In this document: positions 1 through 6,885 of the stretch, one piece after another
Layout of the letters: each line of letters starts with the position of its first letter
How positions within the stretch are numbered: position 1 is the stretch's first letter
DNA from: a virus
Taxonomy: Duplodnaviria; Heunggongvirae; Uroviricota; Caudoviricetes
IMG/VR virus record: IMGVR_UViG_2541047121_000009
Direction: 5' to 3' (one strand)
Length of the DNA: 7,205 nt
Translations under genes and position numbers: made by a program
Notes under the pieces: model-generated
The model's database searches: none
What the model saw: only the letters and a program-made list of their open reading frames with translations
Told to the model about the DNA's origin: nothing

Positions 1-76
1 CGTATTGTTGGGCTGGAAATGGGCGCAGACGATTACGTCACCAAACCGCTGGAACTGCGCGAACTGGTAGTACGGG
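1..76 (+). pseudogene. torR: Internal fragment of an OmpR/PhoB-family response-regulator gene (end of receiver domain), probably torR, ending at a rearrangement junction near nt 76
   Basis: Frame 1 on the + strand reads RIVGLEMGADDYVTKPLELRELVVR. GADDYVTKP is the hallmark receiver-domain motif, and the unusual KPLELRELVV variant matches my recollection of E. coli TorR. The resemblance stops at about nt 76 (next expected residues VKNLLWR are absent). From memory, not searched. Confidence 0.5.
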
Positions 77-1154
77 ACAACTCCTTATCAATTGCCGTAT
101 TCAGTGTGTCGCGAATGTCGGTCAGTTCTTCCCACGTTGGCAGGTCAACCGTGTTTTTCACCGCCGGTGCATTGTTCAGTGCCGGATGCGTGACAGAAGG
201 CCAGCCGGTGCTCTGCGCGGGTGTTGTTGACTGCCCTACTGTGGCATTCTGCATCACCGCGGAAGTTGTGGGCGCAGGCAATCGTGTGACGGCATACGCC
301 GCTTCGCTGATTGCGGTCGTACGAAGGGTGCTGGCAACCACGTTACGCTGCTGCGTCGCCGTGGCGGTAGTTTTACTGTCCGTTTTCCAGACGCCGCGCG
401 GTTGCAGATCGCTGCCGAGGCTGACACCGGAAAGCGTTTTGATCATGGTGACCAGGTCGCTGGCGTTACCATAAAGGCGTTTCCCGGTACGCCACATTTT
501 CTGCACCTGCTCAACGAAATTTTTGCCTGACGATGGTGGCGGCAGAAGTACCGAGATATCCCCCTGCAACAGCCTGGCGGCATCCGATACGGCAGAATCC
601 ACCACTTTCATCGCATCAGAAACATACCCAAGCATTGTGCTGGCATTACCGACGACGTCGTTCTGCACAAAATCTGCCACGCCATCGATACTGAAACCAC
701 TGAAGCTGTCACTGATGCAGTCATCCAGTGCAGAACAGGATGACATCAGCGTCTGCGCCGTCGCCGCACCTGAAGTGGGGTAAGAGAGTTCTCCCGCTTC
801 GACAAACTTCAGGTCAAAGCGGACAATACGCCCTTCACTCTTCGATGTGCTGACCCGAACTTCCCCGTCAACACAGACTTTCAGCTCACCGTAAGTCGGA
901 TGGACAAGCGTGCCGGGACCGGGTTTATTCAGCGCGTCAATCAGGCGATCGCGCTGGTCAAAGCAGTCATCTCCCACCACATAAGCTGTGATGGACGGGC
1001 GGAAAGTGATTTTCCCCAGGTCTTCGGTATAGGGTTTGTCGCGGTTCGGGTATTCGTGCGTTTCCACACGACGACCGGTTCCCGCACTTTCTTCTTCAAC
1101 CTTAAACGGCACACCGCGAAATGACGCGTCCTGAAGTCTGTCTTTCCACGTCAT
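33..1154 (-). CDS. Mu N-like DNA circularization / tail protein (gp43-like), apparently C-terminally truncated and fused to about 14 codons read antisense through the torR-like fragment
   Basis: The minus-strand ORF has a conserved N-terminus (MTWKDRLQDASFRGVPF) resembling Mu N. ATG at 1154 is preceded by GGAG with 5-nt spacing, whereas the track start at 1196 has no SD and would place a terminator-like hairpin inside the coding region. The final residues SRTTSSRSSSGLVT are encoded by the reverse complement of the response-regulator fragment. About 373 aa is shorter than my recollection of Mu N (about 490 aa). Confidence 0.65.
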   Translation of the reverse strand: MTWKDRLQDASFRGVPFKVEEESAGTGRRVETHEYPNRDKPYTEDLGKITFRPSITAYVVGDDCFDQRDRLIDALNKPGPGTLVHPTYGELKVCVDGEVRVSTSKSEGRIVRFDLKFVEAGELSYPTSGAATAQTLMSSCSALDDCISDSFSGFSIDGVADFVQNDVVGNASTMLGYVSDAMKVVDSAVSDAARLLQGDISVLLPPPSSGKNFVEQVQKMWRTGKRLYGNASDLVTMIKTLSGVSLGSDLQPRGVWKTDSKTTATATQQRNVVASTLRTTAISEAAYAVTRLPAPTTSAVMQNATVGQSTTPAQSTGWPSVTHPALNNAPAVKNTVDLPTWEELTDIRDTLNTAIDKELSRTTSSRSSSGLVT

Positions 1155-1167
1155 ATAAACTCCGTAC

Positions 1168-1193
1168 ATAAAAAATCCCACCGGAGTGGGACT
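1168..1193 (-). terminator. Candidate rho-independent terminator or attenuator between the tape measure and N genes
   Basis: On the minus strand: TCCCAC-TCCG-GTGGGA (6-bp GC-rich stem, 4-nt loop; + strand 1176-1191) followed directly by TTTTTTAT. The + strand has no U-tract after the stem, so it is unidirectional. Confidence 0.4.
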
Positions 1194-1214
1194 CATTAAC
1201 AGATTAATTTTTCA

Positions 1215-3050
1215 TTACCTGCCAAAGCGCGTATAGCCAACATCATGGCTGACATCAAAACCGCTGGATCGCGTTTCCATAACCCGCATACCCGGAGGCG
1301 AATTCACAAAAGAGACCTTGATCTCACCATCAACTTTTGGCGCAGAAGCTTTGTTAATCATGAAGGGATTCGGGCCTGTGGCACCGGAGGCGTTGTTTGA
1401 CTGAGCCGGATCTACCGCCTGATAAGGTGTGTATCCCCGTGCCGGTATTCCCGTCCCATAAGCATCATAAGCACCCGCGCCCCACTGCGCAGAGTTAATG
1501 GCATCGACCGTGTCACCGGAACTGTCGGTAAACCACTCAATAATTGGCTTCAGTTTGTCCCACATATCCTGAAACCACTTAACAACCGGTCCCCAGTTAT
1601 TGATTACCATCCCCAGCGGCGACCAGGCAAAAACCTTCTTCAGAAGTTCCCAGCCAGCCTCAAAATAAGGACCAATGGTTTCCCAGAGCTTCTTGAAATA
1701 AGGTCCGACAACATCCCAGTTAGTGATAATTAATCCCGCAGCCAGGGCTATCGCCGTCGCAATCATTCCAATCGGCGTCATCGACATGATCCTGCTGACA
1801 ATACTGATGGCACCGCCAACGCCCATCAATCCCAGTTTCAGAATCGCAAGACCGGCAGCAAGCCCGACGACGCCGCGAATAACCCGGGGATTTTCATCCG
1901 CAAACTTCGTGAATTTTTCCCCTAACTCCCCCAGCCATTGCGTGATATTTTTGGCGTCACCAGAAAATGCGCCGCCAATAGCCGCAAGGCCGTTAGTTGC
2001 GGTCCCCGTCATTGCCTCCCACAGGTTGGACAGCGTACCAAGCTGGGCCTGAACACGTTTATTCAGGCTGGCCTGTTTATTCATCTTCTGCTGGATCTGA
2101 TCGTAGCCATCCTTTCCTTTATCGATTAGTGCATTGACCACCTGAAGGGTTTCGGCATCATCACCAAATATTGCCTTAAGTACACCTGTTCGCTTAACGT
2201 CGGTCAGTTTTCGCAGCTTTGCCAGTTGCCTGAACATGTTATCAAGACCGCCAAAACTTCCTTTGCCGTCAGTAAAATCGAGCTGTACCCCGAGTTTCTG
2301 GCGGGCCATGATTTTATTGACGTCCCTGATTTTCTTAACGCTTAATCCGGACTGGATAACTTTTCGCAGGGCGTTACCTGCCGACTCCCCGTTCATCCCC
2401 ATCTGATCCATCATGACGCTGATGGGGGCAAGGCTCTGTGCAGCCTGAAGACCGTCCTTGTTCACCATCTTCAGAACAGAGCTGGTTTTAGTGAAGAAGG
2501 ACAACATGTTGGTATCGTCAACACCCAGATAAAACGCCTTCTGGATAGTGTCGAACAGCCCCATCATGTCTTCTGACGCCGTTCCGGTAGCATCCTGCAT
2601 CTTTGCAGCAAACTCAGCAGCCGCTTCCGGTGTTTTTTTCAGTTGTACCGCAAGATAAGCTGTCGCTTTACCCACACCGCCAAGAATGTTTTCTGCCGGG
2701 ATCCCCTGACGCACCAGCATCTGCATCATGTTCTGGAAATCAGCCGTTGTACCGGGTAGCTGGTTACCCAGGCCAATAGCCAGTTTATTGATGTCCTGAA
2801 AGCTCTTTCCAACCTCGCCGTTCGCATCCATCATGGCGACTTTCAGCCCGGTGGCGGCGTTTTCCTGATCGGCATAAGATTTCAGGGAAAGCGTCAGACC
2901 CGCTGCCAGTCCGCCACCAAGCGCCAGCCCACCCTGTGACGCTTCTTCCGCCTGGCGTTTAAATCCCCGGATTTTCTTTTGCATTTTCGACAGCGCGGGA
3001 GAAAGCCTGTCGACACCGGTGATCAACGCCTTAAGCTCAAATTCCGCCAT
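1215..3050 (-). CDS. Phage tail tape measure protein (Mu Y / gp42-like), 611 aa
   Basis: Long ORF immediately downstream of the tube and chaperone genes. Gly/Ala-rich hydrophobic central segments (GVVGLAAGLAILKLGLMGVGG, IGMIATAIALAAGLII), 11-residue periodic Trp repeats near the C-terminus, and AGGAG upstream of the ATG. Gene order sheath-tube-chaperone-TMP-N matches Mu. Confidence 0.85.
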   Translation of the reverse strand: MAEFELKALITGVDRLSPALSKMQKKIRGFKRQAEEASQGGLALGGGLAAGLTLSLKSYADQENAATGLKVAMMDANGEVGKSFQDINKLAIGLGNQLPGTTADFQNMMQMLVRQGIPAENILGGVGKATAYLAVQLKKTPEAAAEFAAKMQDATGTASEDMMGLFDTIQKAFYLGVDDTNMLSFFTKTSSVLKMVNKDGLQAAQSLAPISVMMDQMGMNGESAGNALRKVIQSGLSVKKIRDVNKIMARQKLGVQLDFTDGKGSFGGLDNMFRQLAKLRKLTDVKRTGVLKAIFGDDAETLQVVNALIDKGKDGYDQIQQKMNKQASLNKRVQAQLGTLSNLWEAMTGTATNGLAAIGGAFSGDAKNITQWLGELGEKFTKFADENPRVIRGVVGLAAGLAILKLGLMGVGGAISIVSRIMSMTPIGMIATAIALAAGLIITNWDVVGPYFKKLWETIGPYFEAGWELLKKVFAWSPLGMVINNWGPVVKWFQDMWDKLKPIIEWFTDSSGDTVDAINSAQWGAGAYDAYGTGIPARGYTPYQAVDPAQSNNASGATGPNPFMINKASAPKVDGEIKVSFVNSPPGMRVMETRSSGFDVSHDVGYTRFGR

Positions 3051-3461
3051 GTGTGCGTTTCTCCTGCTCTATCCTGTTTGCCTGACTGACCAGCAAGGGA
3101 ATTTCACTGATCGGCATATTCAGCAATTCGAAAGGATTAATGCGCCAGTAGCTGGCGCAGTCAAAGAAGCGATCAGTGAGGTATTCAGCCGTCAGGCCTG
3201 GAGGAAAAAACCAGCCACAAGCCACGCCGCTGCATTCAGGTCTGCCGGAGACATCTGGTCGACAGAGCTTTGCGGCACTTTCGCCAGCCGCACAATGTAT
3301 TTCGACACCACATGCGCCAGAAGTCTGACTGACTCATCCTGATTCATCTGGTAGGGATACCCCAGCTCGCGGACATCCTTCCCGGTGGGTTCATCAAACT
3401 CCAGTACGGAGAGTGTCTCGCCATGAGCAGTAATCGGTTTCTTTAACTCAAGCTCTTTCAT
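3037..3461 (-). CDS. Tail assembly chaperone, long form made by programmed -1 frameshifting (gpGT analogue); predicted shift at 3204..3210
   Basis: The -1 frame is open from upstream of the slippery site to a stop at 3037-3039, which overlaps the tape measure start at 3050. After the shift the product reads ...AGFFPPGLTAEYLTDRFFDCASYWRINPFELLNMPISEIPLLVSQANRIEQEKRTHGGI. Confidence 0.6.
3192..3461 (-). CDS. Tail assembly chaperone, short form (Mu gp41 / lambda gpG analogue), 89 aa
   Basis: Small acidic protein encoded between the tube and tape measure genes. Its ATG overlaps the tube stop (ATGA-type coupling). Contains the slippery heptamer near its 3' end. Confidence 0.75.
   Translation of the reverse strand: MKELELKKPITAHGETLSVLEFDEPTGKDVRELGYPYQMNQDESVRLLAHVVSKYIVRLAKVPQSSVDQMSPADLNAAAWLVAGFFLQA
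3204..3210 (-). other. Slippery heptamer T_TTT_TTC for programmed -1 ribosomal frameshifting
   Basis: On the minus strand the zero frame reads GCT GGT TTT TTC CTC CAG GCC TGA. The X_XXY_YYZ heptamer T TTT TTC sits 3 codons before the short-form stop, and the -1 frame opens exactly here. Confidence 0.6.
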
Positions 3462-3817
3462 TACTGGTAATCCCCTTCTTCACCGTGGAACTCAAGATCA
3501 ACCGTGCCTTCTTCGGCATTATGGTTCGCTTCGCCGTGCAGCCAGGCAGACGACAGTACATAGACCTGACCGTTCGCCAGCTCGGCAGTGATGGTCATCT
3601 CATCAGACGAGGTGATTTTGCTTACCGGAAAATTCTTCGGCACCTTGAAGGTCCCTTTGACATAAGGCGCACGGTGAGTTTCCTTGCGGTCCACTGAACC
3701 GTCCAGGCCGATGATGTCATCGTTAACCGTTTTGTTCATGGGCACCTCAATGCCGCCGGTCAGCGATAGCTGCTGACCGTCAATTTTGAAATAACAGGTT
3801 CCCCCGATACGGGCCAT
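3461..3817 (-). CDS. Contractile tail tube protein (Mu M / gp40-like), 118 aa
   Basis: Size and position directly downstream of the sheath gene; its ATG overlaps the sheath stop (TAATG). Sequence (MARIGGTCYFKIDGQQLSLTGG...) resembles Mu-type tube proteins, from memory. Confidence 0.8.
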   Translation of the reverse strand: MARIGGTCYFKIDGQQLSLTGGIEVPMNKTVNDDIIGLDGSVDRKETHRAPYVKGTFKVPKNFPVSKITSSDEMTITAELANGQVYVLSSAWLHGEANHNAEEGTVDLEFHGEEGDYQ

Positions 3818-5313
3818 TATGCAGACTCCTCTGAATACTGAAGACGGAACTGATTAACCACGGCAAAGACACGCAGCTGGTTAACATAGTCAGGCGGGAA
3901 CAGCGTGTTCAGGCGGTTCGGATCGCTGGCATCACGCTCCACAACCAGGTACTGCTTAAACAGTTCGTAGTTTTCCACGATCCCCGCACGCTCAAGCTGA
4001 CGGTAGGTTGCCAGCAGTTCCCCTTTGATCACCGCCGGGGTGACAATCGCCTGACCGGGACCAAAGCGGGTACCGTCACTGGCAAGCTTGTGACGCCCGT
4101 ACTTACTGGTAATGACGGATTTCAGTTTGCGCAGTACATACGCGCTGGTATGCAGCGTCTCACTGTCGAGGTAACTGTTATCCGCAACCCCGTAAGCGTT
4201 TTTCCTGTACGTGGTGACATCACGCTGAATGCGTAGTACCCCGCTTTCGACATACGCCGTTGCCACGCCATGAGACAGCAGGGTCTGTTGTTCGGTCATC
4301 GTGAACCGTTTCCCCTTCGGCGCAGGCAGCATACCCACCAGCTCACCGGTCTGCGTGGGACGTGCCGGATCGTTGCGGATAAACACCGCTGCGCGGGCGG
4401 TACGGCTTGCCGCCAGCTCGTCGGCAGGCGTCTGGGTCTCTTTTTCGTACCCCGCCAGGGTAATGTGCTGCTGGTTAAACTGGTCACCTGCGGTCACCAG
4501 TTCTGACAGCGTGCCGATCTTTGCCGTATACACATGACCATACAGCTGACGCGCATAGCTCCAGCGACCGCTGGTATCGTTCATCTCGGTCACCAGCGTG
4601 TTAACGGAGGCCGTGTCGTTGAACGGCAGGCCGATATAATCAAACGGCTCATCCGCCATTGCAGCCACCGCGCCGGTGAGAACCGGAGCACCCGTTCCGG
4701 CGGTACCCGTCGCCACGGCAATCTGTACGCCCGCTGGCAGCACTTCGCCCCCACCAAAGCCGTAGTAATTGAGGCTGACAGGAATTTCATTCCCACAAAG
4801 CCCCTTATGACGCGCGGTCAGTGTGACCACGCCTGCCAAAGATGAAGCCGTAAACGGCAGGGTCGGAACGGCATTGATGGCATCCTGGATACTGCTGGCA
4901 ATCATCGTGACGTTATCGCCGTTAGTCACCGGTGCCTGCACGCGGGTACGTCCTACATACACATTCACCGTGCCGGTTTCGGTTGCCGCCCCGGTCACCG
5001 TCAGCGTAACTGTTGCCGCCGCACCTGTGGATTCAGGAACGGCAATCACATACAGCTCGCCAAACGGGTCAGTCTGGCGATAAGCCTCGACCATACGCGC
5101 CAGCTGACTTCCCGCACCACAAATCTGGCGTGCATAGTCTGCCGACGACATCAGTACCAGACTGTTGGCAACAATCTCTGCACCGTTATTGGCATGACCA
5201 ATCAGCAGCGATGCTCCGCTGTCCTGTGCAGTATTCGCCGCCTGGTTATCCATTTCCGCATAAAACAACGGAACCAGCGTATTCGACGGAATGGTGTTAA
5301 AGCTTATCGTCAT
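3817..5313 (-). CDS. Contractile tail sheath protein (Mu L / gp39-like), 498 aa
   Basis: N-terminus MTISFNTIPSNTLVPLFYAEMDN... resembles Mu/P2-type sheath proteins. About 500 aa, AAGGTG SD 8 nt upstream of the ATG, and immediately followed by the tube gene. Confidence 0.85.
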   Translation of the reverse strand: MTISFNTIPSNTLVPLFYAEMDNQAANTAQDSGASLLIGHANNGAEIVANSLVLMSSADYARQICGAGSQLARMVEAYRQTDPFGELYVIAVPESTGAAATVTLTVTGAATETGTVNVYVGRTRVQAPVTNGDNVTMIASSIQDAINAVPTLPFTASSLAGVVTLTARHKGLCGNEIPVSLNYYGFGGGEVLPAGVQIAVATGTAGTGAPVLTGAVAAMADEPFDYIGLPFNDTASVNTLVTEMNDTSGRWSYARQLYGHVYTAKIGTLSELVTAGDQFNQQHITLAGYEKETQTPADELAASRTARAAVFIRNDPARPTQTGELVGMLPAPKGKRFTMTEQQTLLSHGVATAYVESGVLRIQRDVTTYRKNAYGVADNSYLDSETLHTSAYVLRKLKSVITSKYGRHKLASDGTRFGPGQAIVTPAVIKGELLATYRQLERAGIVENYELFKQYLVVERDASDPNRLNTLFPPDYVNQLRVFAVVNQFRLQYSEESA

Positions 5314-5467
5314 CGGTGTTCACCTTTTTATTCACGCGCCGGATATCACCCGCTGCTTCACGGCGCAGCCAGTAGTTGTTCTCGTCAACATTTCGCCCTT
5401 CGGCGGGCAAAAGGTCGCCGCGGGCAGGGTCAGGCACTGACCGCCCTTTAACAGGTTTGACAAACAT
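5297..5467 (-). CDS. Hypothetical small basic protein (56 aa), not in the supplied ORF track
   Basis: Translates as MFVKPVKGRSVPDPARGDLLPAEGRNVDENNYWLRREAAGDIRRVNKKVNTDDDKL. The upstream gene's TGA stop is embedded in GAGGA, 5 nt before this ATG. It fills the only gap of about 160 bp in the operon and overlaps the sheath start by 17 nt in another frame. No homology recognised. Confidence 0.3.
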   Translation of the reverse strand: MFVKPVKGRSVPDPARGDLLPAEGRNVDENNYWLRREAAGDIRRVNKKVNTDDDKL

Positions 5468-5475
5468 GAGGATCC

Positions 5476-6036
5476 TCAGGAAGGAAGGGTTATTTCGGTG
5501 TGATGTTCGATATCGCCGTCAGGCCCGTTACCGGGCTCGAGATAATCAACATCAATCGCCAGCGTTTGCAGTTCATCCAGACTGTTCAGATCATCCTGCT
5601 GGCGGGTATCGTCTTCAGTCAGCTCGCTGATGACCGAAAAATCGAACTGATAAATCAGCTCATGACGATTCAGATCCAGCAGCGTGCCGCCGTCATAGGT
5701 AATCGGGTTACCGCACGCTTCCGGGTTCCAGCCCAGCAAGGCCTTAAAGAGCATCTGCCGGACATCGTCCACCACATCATACGAAGCAAACTGACCGAGC
5801 TCATCACGCCCGTTACTCAGTATGACAACCACGGAGAAGCCCTCTTTCAGCTCCTGCCAGTAGTCGGTCTGGCTTTTGTTTTCTCCCGGAGAGTCATCAC
5901 CCGGTACCACATACGCCGCCGGGAGTCTCAGCTTTCCGACCTCCGGCAGATTTTTGAACTGTGCCGCGCCTGCCACCCGGTTTTCAAAATACGGGCAGCG
6001 GGCACGCAGCGCAGCAATAACAGGCGTCAGTTTCAT
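5476..6036 (-). CDS. Mu-like virion (neck/tail-proximal) protein, gp37/gp38-like, 186 aa
   Basis: Its ATG overlaps the upstream stop (ATGA) and it sits directly upstream of the sheath gene, as the small conserved genes preceding L do in Mu-like phages. Exact family not verifiable without a search. Confidence 0.55.
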   Translation of the reverse strand: MKLTPVIAALRARCPYFENRVAGAAQFKNLPEVGKLRLPAAYVVPGDDSPGENKSQTDYWQELKEGFSVVVILSNGRDELGQFASYDVVDDVRQMLFKALLGWNPEACGNPITYDGGTLLDLNRHELIYQFDFSVISELTEDDTRQQDDLNSLDELQTLAIDVDYLEPGNGPDGDIEHHTEITLPS

Positions 6037-6539
6037 CTGCGTCGTCGCTCAGGCTTCAGTGATTTACGTAATTCTCGCGCCAGAAAATAGCGTGTCCAGC
6101 TGCGGTTCTTTTCAAGCGTTTCCACCATAAAGTTATTACGTGGAGCCAGCCGCCAGCCGCTGCCACCGGATGCACCACGATGATGACTACGACGACGTTT
6201 TGCTCCTCCCCGGACACCAAAAAACAGAAACGCCGGATAGAAGTCACCAGAGATCATCCGGTTCCCCTTCCCGTTGCGCTGGTTAGGGGCAATGCGTGTC
6301 ATAAAACCGGCTCGCTTTTTACTGGCTCTCGGCACCATGTAACCAATCGAACGAGCCAGGCGTCCGGTCTGATAACCGGGGTTTTCACCCGGTGCCGACC
6401 GCGCACGGCGCATCACCAGCCGACGGGCATCACGCATATGACGCTGCCCAATCGTGACAAACGCCCGCCGGACACGGGCGCGGTTAAAGCGCATCTCGGC
6501 GGGCTGCTGAACATCAACGTGAAAAAAGGGAGTCGCCAT
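6033..6539 (-). CDS. Arg-rich phage virion morphogenesis / tail-completion-like protein, 168 aa
   Basis: Strong SD (GGAGG, 5 nt) before the ATG at 6539. Highly basic, ending in RRRR. Position in the neck gene block of a Mu-like late operon. Family assignment from memory is uncertain. Confidence 0.55.
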   Translation of the reverse strand: MATPFFHVDVQQPAEMRFNRARVRRAFVTIGQRHMRDARRLVMRRARSAPGENPGYQTGRLARSIGYMVPRASKKRAGFMTRIAPNQRNGKGNRMISGDFYPAFLFFGVRGGAKRRRSHHRGASGGSGWRLAPRNNFMVETLEKNRSWTRYFLARELRKSLKPERRRR

Positions 6540-6885
6540 TGCTGCCTCCGTGACTCTGCGTAAATTCGCCCAGTTCCGTACACTCCAGCAGCAGAAAGCG
6601 CCGCGCCCCGTTCAGATCGCGCTGACGTTTCACCCGGTACACACTGTCATCACAGACCACCTCATAATCAGCAGTGATCCCGCGGCGGTAGCGAATGGTG
6701 ATGTAATGGGTGATGGCGTCCCCGGTCTGCGCGGTTTCCTGCCAGGTGGTGGCACTGGTCTGGATAACCTTCGCCCATGCCCGGAACGCAACCGGGTATT
6801 GAGGCTCCACGCCAAAGTTATCCGCGGGCATATCCACCCGCTGGCGGATCAGGACGCGTTTATTCAGTTCGCCGGGGTCCGGCAG
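6514..6885 (-). pseudogene. 3' portion of a Mu-like neck/head-completion gene (gp36-like?), interrupted at its 5' side by the IS insertion
   Basis: The minus-strand frame that ends at 6514 stays open upstream past the track's GTG at 6837, which has no SD, and runs into the IS terminal repeat at 6886. The first stop in that frame lies inside the IS. Confidence 0.5.

What the first reader, a model, noticed from the sequence alone, without database searches (positions are those of the whole stretch)
1..80. Abrupt junction between a torR-like response-regulator fragment and a truncated Mu N-like gene
The first 76 nt encode, on the + strand, a canonical receiver-domain segment (GADDYVTKPLELRELVV). 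From about nt 76 onward the sequence is the 3' end of a minus-strand Mu N-like gene, whose reading frame runs about 14 codons antisense into the regulator fragment before stopping at nt 33. This implies (a) the regulator gene is disrupted or 3'-deleted, which if it is torR would abolish TMAO-responsive control of torCAD, and (b) the prophage has lost everything distal to N (baseplate and fibre genes P, Q, V, W, R, S, U in Mu). No Mu-type terminal sequence is visible at the junction, so a deletion is more likely than a true phage end.
Basis: partly seen in the sequence, partly recalled or inferred. Interest (0 to 1): 0.55.

Follow-up and report, generated by a model that had tools for sequence, protein, structure and literature searches.

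The report
torR scrap on a prophage contig end

Summary
Bases 1-76 are E. coli torR nt 262-337 (76/76 identical). From about nt 70 the sequence is the antisense strand of a phage "DNA circularization protein" gene. That gene keeps 364 of 442 codons, then adds 9 foreign codons and a stop at nt 33-35.

The interpretation mostly fails.
- The window is an entire 7,205-nt draft contig (AVRO01000088.1, E. coli T234_00), so the torR piece is only the terminal 76 nt.
- The prophage is not Mu-like. It is a thrW-integrated, tyrosine-integrase prophage of the phiP27/e14 type with a Mu-type tail module, so no Mu ends are expected.
- In the closest complete genomes (CV261, FRIK2455) both genes are intact and single-copy. 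They lie collinear, 0.95-1.02 Mb apart, with rpsA, msbA, lpxK, kdsB and asnS between them. A simple deletion would be lethal.
- The join lies at the only 13/14 collinear match between the two genes, with a 7-bp perfect core.
- It occurs in no other public assembly.

Whether torR is disrupted, or the distal phage genes are lost, cannot be told from this contig. My best reading is a chimeric contig end (about 0.5). The main rival is a real microhomology-mediated capture of a copy of torR DNA (about 0.35). Interest is low.

The parts
1..76 (+). torR fragment: nt 262-337 of the 693-nt gene, codons 88-112 at the end of the receiver domain. It forms the terminal 76 nt of the contig.
   Evidence: 76/76 identity to annotated torR in 3,810 records at >=99%. 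Position within torR. Single copy in 5,408 genomes.
63..76 (.). Microhomology block at the join. torR reads ACTGGTAGTACGGG and N antisense reads ACTGGTTGTACGGG (13/14). nt 69 is torR-type and nt 77 is N-type, so the crossover lies in the perfect 7-bp GTACGGG at nt 70-76.
   Evidence: Parental sequences read. It is the only >=13/14 collinear match between intact torR and intact N.
33..1154 (-). Truncated N-family gene ('DNA circularization protein', PF07157). It encodes 364 native codons (nt 63-1154), 9 foreign codons read antisense through torR, and a stop at nt 33-35. The last 78 residues of the 442-aa protein are missing.
   Evidence: ORF list. BLASTP 364/364 against WP_000219910.1-type intact protein. 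Pfam DNA_circ_N E=4e-34. Gene call on the source contig.
1215..3050 (-). Tail tape measure protein, 611 aa.
   Evidence: PF10145.
3037..3461 (-). Tail assembly chaperone (89 aa, nt 3192-3461) with an overlapping 62-aa downstream ORF (nt 3037-3225). The layout is that of a frameshift chaperone pair.
   Evidence: PF10109.
3461..5313 (-). Tail tube (nt 3461-3817) and tail sheath (nt 3817-5313).
5297..6885 (-). DUF2635 ORF, tail terminator, a 168-aa hypothetical protein, and a head-closure gene whose 5' end is cut by the IS.
   Evidence: The head-closure product is 123 aa here and in CV261, against 136 aa in FRIK2455.
6886..7205 (+). Left end of a 1,310-bp IS629/IS1203 element, with orfA starting at nt 6940. 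It forms the other contig end.
   Evidence: Sequence. 100% identical to the IS copy at the same site in CV261 and to an IS1203 copy elsewhere in FRIK2455.

Best explanation
The torR::N' join is a chimeric contig end, not a chromosomal deletion. Contig AVRO01000088.1 of the short-read draft of E. coli T234_00 runs from an IS629 copy through the tail genes of a thrW-type defective prophage. It stops 76 nt after switching, at a 13/14-nt chance similarity, into torR sequence from a locus about 1 Mb away.

The most likely origin is technical: a template-switch or ligation chimera in the library, or a spurious short-overlap extension or gap-closing step at a contig end.

Shown here: what the two parental sequences are, the exact breakpoint, the microhomology, the whole-contig status, the roughly 1 Mb collinear separation in the nearest relatives, and the uniqueness of the join.

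Inferred: that the join was made in vitro or in silico rather than in the cell. On this reading T234_00 has an intact torR and an ordinary, already defective prophage.
For: - The window equals the whole 7,205-nt contig, and the foreign piece is only its last 76 nt. That is shorter than one read of the 100-nt class (my assumption about HiSeq runs of that period; the neighbouring record does not state a read length). It also equals k-1 for k=77, or one classic 76-nt read.
- The neighbouring accession from the same submitter was HiSeq paired-end with Velvet assembly.
- None of 5,426 complete E. coli genomes carries the join, although 1,075 carry the N region and 5,408 carry the torR piece.
- There was no hit in GTDB species representatives or JGI metagenomes.
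- The chimeric 373-aa protein exists on exactly one contig among about 15 billion proteins, and 10 plausible partial variants are absent.
- CV261 is the only complete genome sharing this contig's IS629 insertion site. It has intact N and intact torR 0.95 Mb apart. FRIK2455 has them 1.02 Mb apart.
- The join is collinear, so it is deletion-type. The interval holds rpsA, msbA, lpxK, kdsB, asnS and mukFEB. These are essential in K-12, or conditionally essential for mukFEB (established knowledge). The straightforward biological reading is therefore impossible.
- Non-IS, non-repeat joins of random distant loci are far rarer in real E. coli genomes than chimeric ends are in 2013-era drafts (my judgement).
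Against: - In a pure de Bruijn assembler such as Velvet, a chimeric read cannot simply be appended. With k near 77 and 100-nt reads, the join needs several staggered reads.
- The normal continuation of N would have to be disconnected. That DNA is single-copy in O157 genomes, so no repeat explains a contig break there.
- A torR tail of exactly 76 nt is what a k=77 graph yields if a real join coexists with native torR. However, the other contig end gives 66 nt past the last IS variant site, which implies k=67. The two ends disagree, so the k-mer argument is inconclusive.
- The microhomology is equally typical of in-vivo illegitimate recombination.
- No reads or other contigs of the assembly could be inspected.
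Confidence: 0.5

Rival explanations
1. The join is real but is not a deletion. A double-strand break or stalled fork in the prophage N gene was repaired by microhomology-mediated end joining or template switching (A-EJ / MMBIR type). This captured or copied a piece of tor-locus DNA starting at torR nt 337. Native torR stays intact elsewhere. N is inactivated by an insertion or duplicative patch, and the distal phage genes may still lie beyond the patch.
For: - The crossover lies exactly at the only 13/14 collinear match between the genes, with a 7-bp perfect core.
- If the assembler was Velvet, as for the neighbouring accession, the join must be supported by k-mers from several reads.
- The contig would stop exactly k-1=76 nt into torR because native torR creates a branch at nt 77.
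- The N continuation is single-copy, so the uninterrupted run from the N side across the join suggests that N is not continuous in this DNA.
- This reading avoids the lethal 1-Mb deletion.
Against: - Ectopic capture of chromosomal DNA from 1 Mb away without IS or repeat involvement is very rarely seen in E. coli genome comparisons (my judgement).
- The join is seen in no other assembly.
- The second junction is unseen.
- The k=77 reading is contradicted by the other contig end, where 66 nt implies k=67.
Confidence: 0.35
2. A true deletion fused the prophage to torR. It removed the 3' part of torR (leaving TorR 1-112 without its DNA-binding domain), torT/torS or other DNA, and the baseplate and fibre genes. 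TMAO induction of torCAD would be abolished.
For: - The two parental sequences are collinear, as a deletion requires.
- Microhomology is typical of spontaneous deletions.
- In frame, torR would read into 133 junk codons and stop at nt 472-474. It would lack Trans_reg_C, which lies at residues 153-225.
Against: - The interval is 0.95-1.02 Mb in CV261 and FRIK2455 and contains essential genes.
- T234_00 shares the prophage-internal IS629 site with CV261, so its prophage is expected at thrW, not beside tor.
- In icd-integrated relatives the order would make this a duplication-type junction, not a deletion-type one.
- A unique real join should let the contig run on into torC rather than end after 76 nt.
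Confidence: 0.05
3. This is a genuine end of a Mu-like transposable prophage inserted in torR.
For: - The N-family gene and the Mu-type baseplate genes in relatives (PF06890, PF07409, PF10076) superficially suggest Mu.
Against: - The breakpoint is inside a structural gene, 78 codons from its end.
- Intact relatives carry a tyrosine integrase at thrW or icd. Their early regions, as annotated, list lambdoid genes and no transposase other than IS copies.
- Similarity to Mu N is confined to residues 12-96.
Confidence: 0.01

Closest known systems
thrW/icd-integrated phiP27-like / e14-family prophages of E. coli (for example the thrW prophage of O157:H7 FRIK2455 and CV261; phages vB_EcoM-689R6, SKA5, phiP27)
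   Same: Window nt 63-6885 is 100% identical to the late region of the CV261 and FRIK2455 thrW prophage. The N protein is 99.8% identical to vB_EcoM-689R6 and 53% to phiP27. Gene order is the same: head closure, terminator, sheath, tube, chaperone, tape measure, N.
   Different: N is cut after codon 364 and joined to torR DNA. The head-closure gene is cut by IS629, as it also is in CV261.
Phage Mu / D108 gene N (DNA circularization protein) and Mu-like prophages (Sp18, SfMu)
   Same: They share the Pfam DNA_circ_N N-terminal domain. Relatives share a Mu-type baseplate gene set.
   Different: Identity is only about 40% over residues 12-96. The prophage integrates site-specifically with a tyrosine integrase, and the annotated relatives show no Mu-type transposition genes or Mu ends.
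E. coli torR (OmpR-family response regulator of the TorS/TorT/TorR system controlling torCAD)
   Same: 76/76 nt identity to torR nt 262-337.
   Different: Only 25 codons are present. There is no phospho-acceptor region, no winged-helix domain and no tor context within the contig.
Microhomology-mediated illegitimate recombination junctions (spontaneous deletions, A-EJ, MMBIR) and their in-vitro look-alikes (PCR or library template-switch chimeras)
   Same: Two unrelated single-copy sequences are joined at a short imperfect homology, 7 bp perfect within 13/14.
   Different: The partners are about 1 Mb apart with essential genes between them. The second junction and read support are unknown. The join sits 76 nt from a contig end.

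Membership tests
torR gene | Nucleotide identity to E. coli torR | tested here: met
   76/76 nt, E=3e-31, annotated torR in 5,408 genomes.
torR gene | Complete two-domain ORF (receiver plus Trans_reg_C) next to torC and torT | tested here: not met
   Only codons 88-112 are present and the contig ends there. Intact TorR has PF00072 at residues 5-113 and PF00486 at 153-225.
Mu N / DNA circularization protein family (PF07157) | DNA_circ_N N-terminal domain | tested here: met
   E=4.4e-34, residues 7-93.
Mu N / DNA circularization protein family (PF07157) | Full-length protein as in intact homologues (442 aa) | tested here: not met
   364 native residues, then 9 foreign residues.
Transposable Mu-like prophage (Mu, D108, Sp18, SfMu) | Mu-type transposition genes and Mu ends, with insertion at arbitrary sites | tested here: not met
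   Identical prophages in CV261, FRIK2455 and 00-3076 have a tyrosine integrase or a fixed site (tRNA-Thr thrW, or icd). They carry lambdoid early genes and a P27/HK97 head module.
phiP27 / e14-type integrase prophage with Mu-type tail | Synteny and identity of the late region | tested here: met
   100% identity over nt 63-6885 to the CV261 and FRIK2455 prophage. Relatives carry pinE, ymfQ and tfaE.
Simple chromosomal deletion junction | Parental breakpoints are collinear and the intervening DNA is dispensable | tested here: not met
   The breakpoints are collinear. However, the interval is 0.95 Mb in CV261 and 1.02 Mb in FRIK2455 and includes rpsA, msbA, lpxK, kdsB and asnS.
Microhomology-mediated illegitimate recombination (in vivo) | Short homology exactly at the breakpoint between otherwise unrelated single-copy sequences | tested here: met
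   13/14 with a 7-bp perfect core. It is the only such collinear match between the genes.
Microhomology-mediated illegitimate recombination (in vivo) | The junction is present in genomic DNA (read or PCR support, second junction) | not testable with these tools
No independent assembly carries the join.
Assembly or library chimera | Foreign segment confined to a contig terminus, no longer than one read or k-1, and unreplicated elsewhere | tested here: met
   It is the 76-nt terminal segment of a 7,205-nt contig. It is absent from all other collections searched.
Assembly or library chimera | Lack of consistent read support across the join | not testable with these tools
   No read data are available.

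The most novel reading that the evidence does not exclude
The join is real. A copy of the torR 5' region, possibly with its promoter and more of the tor locus, was captured into a defective prophage by microhomology-mediated repair. This would create a second, receiver-domain-only TorR(1-112) fusion alongside native torR. Such a protein could act as a phosphate sink or decoy for TorS.
Probability: 0.04. Interest if true: 0.3.

Novelty: not a real feature. Interest (0 to 1): 0.08.

Why it matters
It matters mainly as a caution. A gene-disruption and prophage-decay story was read from the last 76 bases of a draft contig. Had it been true, a torR-null O157-lineage strain would have lost TMAO-inducible respiration. 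That would be a modest, strain-specific phenotype of an ordinary kind. The geometry shows the simple story cannot hold. What remains is either an artefact or a single rare repair scar in an already dead prophage. Neither bears on an open question.

Tried and rejected
- **Junction searches.** I searched for the exact junction in 5,426 complete E. coli genomes, GTDB species representatives and JGI metagenomes. There were no hits.
- **Independent assemblies.** I looked up the chimeric protein and 10 plausible edge-truncated variants, hoping to find an independent assembly of the same strain, such as a Logan assembly. Only the NCBI contig carries it.
- **Tape-measure look-up.** I used the tape-measure protein to pull more contexts. 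The tool reads the longest contigs first, so T234_00 was not reached.
- **Literature.** Searches for AVRO00000000 and T234_00 found nothing on this strain. Only the neighbouring accession AVRR (2886-75) gave methods.
- **Prophage beside tor.** I tested whether the prophage might lie next to tor in some genomes. It is at thrW in O157-type genomes and at icd in 00-3076. Neither allows a small deletion.
- **Repeat edge.** I tested whether a repeat edge explains the contig break at the junction. The distal N and baseplate DNA is single-copy.
- **Second torR-like locus.** A second 'place' for the 80-nt query appeared in some O157 genomes. It disappears with megablast, so it is a weak paralogue match and not a second torR copy.
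- **Inferring the assembler's k.** The left end gives 76 (k=77). The right end gives 66 nt past the last IS variant site (k=67), and an identical IS copy exists elsewhere. The two ends are inconsistent, so I dropped this as evidence.
- **Inversion or tandem duplication.** I rejected both as origins for the O157 layout, because both parental segments are collinear with the low coordinate joined to the high one.

Full report
**1. What is in the sequence**

Window nt 1-76 (+) is identical at 76/76 positions to annotated torR in thousands of complete E. coli genomes (E=3e-30; E=3e-31). Alignment to an intact locus places it at torR nt 262-337, which is codons 88-112, RIVGLEMGADDYVTKPLELRELVVR. This is the end of the receiver domain. 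Intact TorR has Response_reg at residues 5-113 and Trans_reg_C at residues 153-225. The piece is single-copy in E. coli, with 5,411 places in 5,408 records.

From nt 63 to nt 6885 the window is 99.9-100% identical to a prophage late region. The minus-strand ORF that ends at nt 33-35 belongs to the DNA_circ_N family (PF07157, E=4e-34). Intact homologues are 442 aa. The window copy matches them 364/364 and then ends with 9 foreign residues, SRSSSGLVT. Neither is met.

**2. The breakpoint**

The torR sequence at the join reads ...GCGCGAACTGGTAGTACGGG|TAAAAAA. The antisense N sequence reads ...GCGCATCACTGGTTGTACGGG|ACAACTCC. The window carries the torR base at nt 69 and the N base at nt 77. The switch therefore lies in the perfect 7-bp GTACGGG at nt 70-76, inside a 13/14 match at nt 63-76. 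An exhaustive comparison shows this is the only match of 13/14 or better between the two intact genes in the collinear orientation. The join was guided by homology. That could have happened in a cell (illegitimate recombination), in a tube (template switching), or in software (a short-overlap extension).

**3. The prophage is not Mu-like**

In CV261 and FRIK2455 the identical late genes belong to a roughly 36-kb prophage. It starts with a tyrosine integrase, which in FRIK2455 lies next to tRNA-Thr beside proA (thrW). It carries the following:
- lambdoid-type early genes (XRE repressor, antiterminator, RusA, holin and lysozyme);
- a P27-family small terminase, with an HK97-type protease and capsid;
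- a contractile tail, then pinE and a GIY-YIG gene.

In strain 00-3076 a near-identical element sits at icd with mcrA, as e14 does.

Only the tail and baseplate module is Mu-type (Phage_Mu_Gp45, GP46, Baseplate_J, Phage_Mu_Gp48). By tblastn, the N protein is:
- 99.8% identical to phage vB_EcoM-689R6;
- 53% identical to phiP27;
- about 40% identical to Mu/D108 N, and only over residues 12-96.

No Mu end was ever to be expected, so its absence is uninformative.

**4. The window is a whole draft contig**

An exact look-up of the chimeric 373-aa protein returns one contig, AVRO01000088.1 of GCA_000462385.2. It is 7,205 nt long and equals the window reversed. The protein record is ERC78437.1 from Escherichia coli T234_00.

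The torR piece is therefore the terminal 76 nt of a contig. The other end runs 320 nt into a 1,310-bp IS629/IS1203 copy that starts at nt 6886.

The neighbouring WGS prefix, AVRR (strain 2886-75, from the same centre), was sequenced on HiSeq with 300-bp paired-end inserts and assembled with Velvet. That the same pipeline was used for T234_00 is my inference.

**5. Geometry rules out the simple deletion**

Among complete genomes, only CV261 shares the IS629 insertion at nt 6886 (contiguous 100% match over nt 63-7205). T234_00 is therefore expected to have the CV261 and O157 layout.

| Genome | N (strand, coordinates) | torR (strand, coordinates) |
|---|---|---|
| CV261 | +, 1,112,791-1,114,119 | -, 2,059,412-2,060,104 |
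| FRIK2455 | +, 323,054-324,382 | -, 1,341,073-1,341,765 |

Both window segments map to the same strand of these records. The join therefore connects the low coordinate to the high coordinate collinearly. That is a deletion-type junction spanning about 0.95 Mb in CV261 and about 1.02 Mb in FRIK2455.

The interval contains rpsA, msbA, lpxK, kdsB, asnS and mukFEB. These are essential in K-12, or conditionally essential for mukFEB (established knowledge). An inversion would join the opposite gene halves. In the icd layout the order would make this a duplication-type junction.

If the join is real, it must therefore be a duplicative capture or insertion of torR DNA. In that case native torR is likely still intact.

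**6. Real or artefact**

Evidence for an artefact:
- The foreign DNA is confined to the last 76 nt of a short-read contig.
- The join occurs in none of 5,426 complete genomes, although 1,075 have the N region.
- It is absent from GTDB representatives and JGI metagenomes.
- It is in no other assembly among about 15 billion proteins, including ten edge-truncated variants.
- It links two random-looking distant loci without any IS or repeat. That is very unusual for real E. coli rearrangements (my judgement).

Evidence for a real join:
- A de Bruijn assembler needs several staggered reads to build such a path.
- The normal continuation of N is single-copy, so nothing obvious would break the contig there.
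- A 76-nt tail is exactly what k=77 gives if native torR creates a branch at nt 77.

That last argument is weakened by the other contig end. It stops 66 nt after the last site that distinguishes IS variants, which implies k=67. It also runs 320 nt into an IS for which an identical copy exists elsewhere in an O157 genome.

My weighting is:
- artefact, about 0.5;
- real non-deletion capture, about 0.35;
- true torR disruption or deletion, about 0.05;
- Mu-type phage end, about 0.01;
- other or unresolved, the remainder.

**7.

'torR disrupted, TMAO control lost' and 'all genes distal to N lost' both depend on DNA outside the contig. They cannot be asserted.

If the join were the only torR copy, the product would be TorR(1-112) fused to 133 junk codons, stopping at nt 472-474. 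It would lack the DNA-binding domain, and torCAD would not be inducible (established role of TorR).

The prophage is dead regardless. IS629 cuts the head-closure gene in this contig, and in CV261, the closest complete relative, the large terminase gene is also partial.

**8. Verdict**

The feature is ordinary or artefactual. Read mapping and PCR on T234_00 would settle it.

Noticed in passing
window 6886-7205: The left end of a 1,310-bp IS629/IS1203 element is inserted in the 5' end of the prophage head-closure gene. Among 5,426 complete E. coli genomes only CV261 (cattle, France) has the IS at this exact site, which marks T234_00 and CV261 as close relatives. The contig ends 320 nt into the IS.
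   Followed up: yes
window 3037-3461 (-): An 89-aa tail assembly chaperone (PF10109) is followed by an overlapping 62-aa ORF between the tube and tape-measure genes. This is the usual layout of a programmed-frameshift chaperone pair. The slippery site was not sought.
   Followed up: no
L003 (CV261) 2796-4009 versus 20793-22006: The same prophage in CV261 carries two IS3-family copies that are only 95% identical to each other. They share the first 83 nt and a 266-nt stretch (window-equivalent nt 7140-7405). Such variant IS copies complicate short-read graphs.
   Followed up: partly
L015 (CP019213.3) 1-7000: In another E. coli genome a 5'-truncated remnant of this prophage, running from the tail terminator onward, lies next to torYZ-like genes (a pentahaem cytochrome plus an 809-aa molybdopterin oxidoreductase), cmoAB and yecN. 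This is a different locus from torR and looks like coincidence.
   Followed up: no
L010 (FRIK2455) 29379-30442, 33039-33554 and 34845-35254: In FRIK2455 the baseplate P-like gene and two tail-fibre region genes of the same prophage are annotated as frameshifted or partial. This prophage is decaying independently in several O157 strains.
   Followed up: no
window 19-474 (+): A 151-aa plus-strand ORF starts at an internal torR Met codon and runs antisense through the 3' part of N. It is a by-product of the join with no independent evidence of coding.
   Followed up: partly
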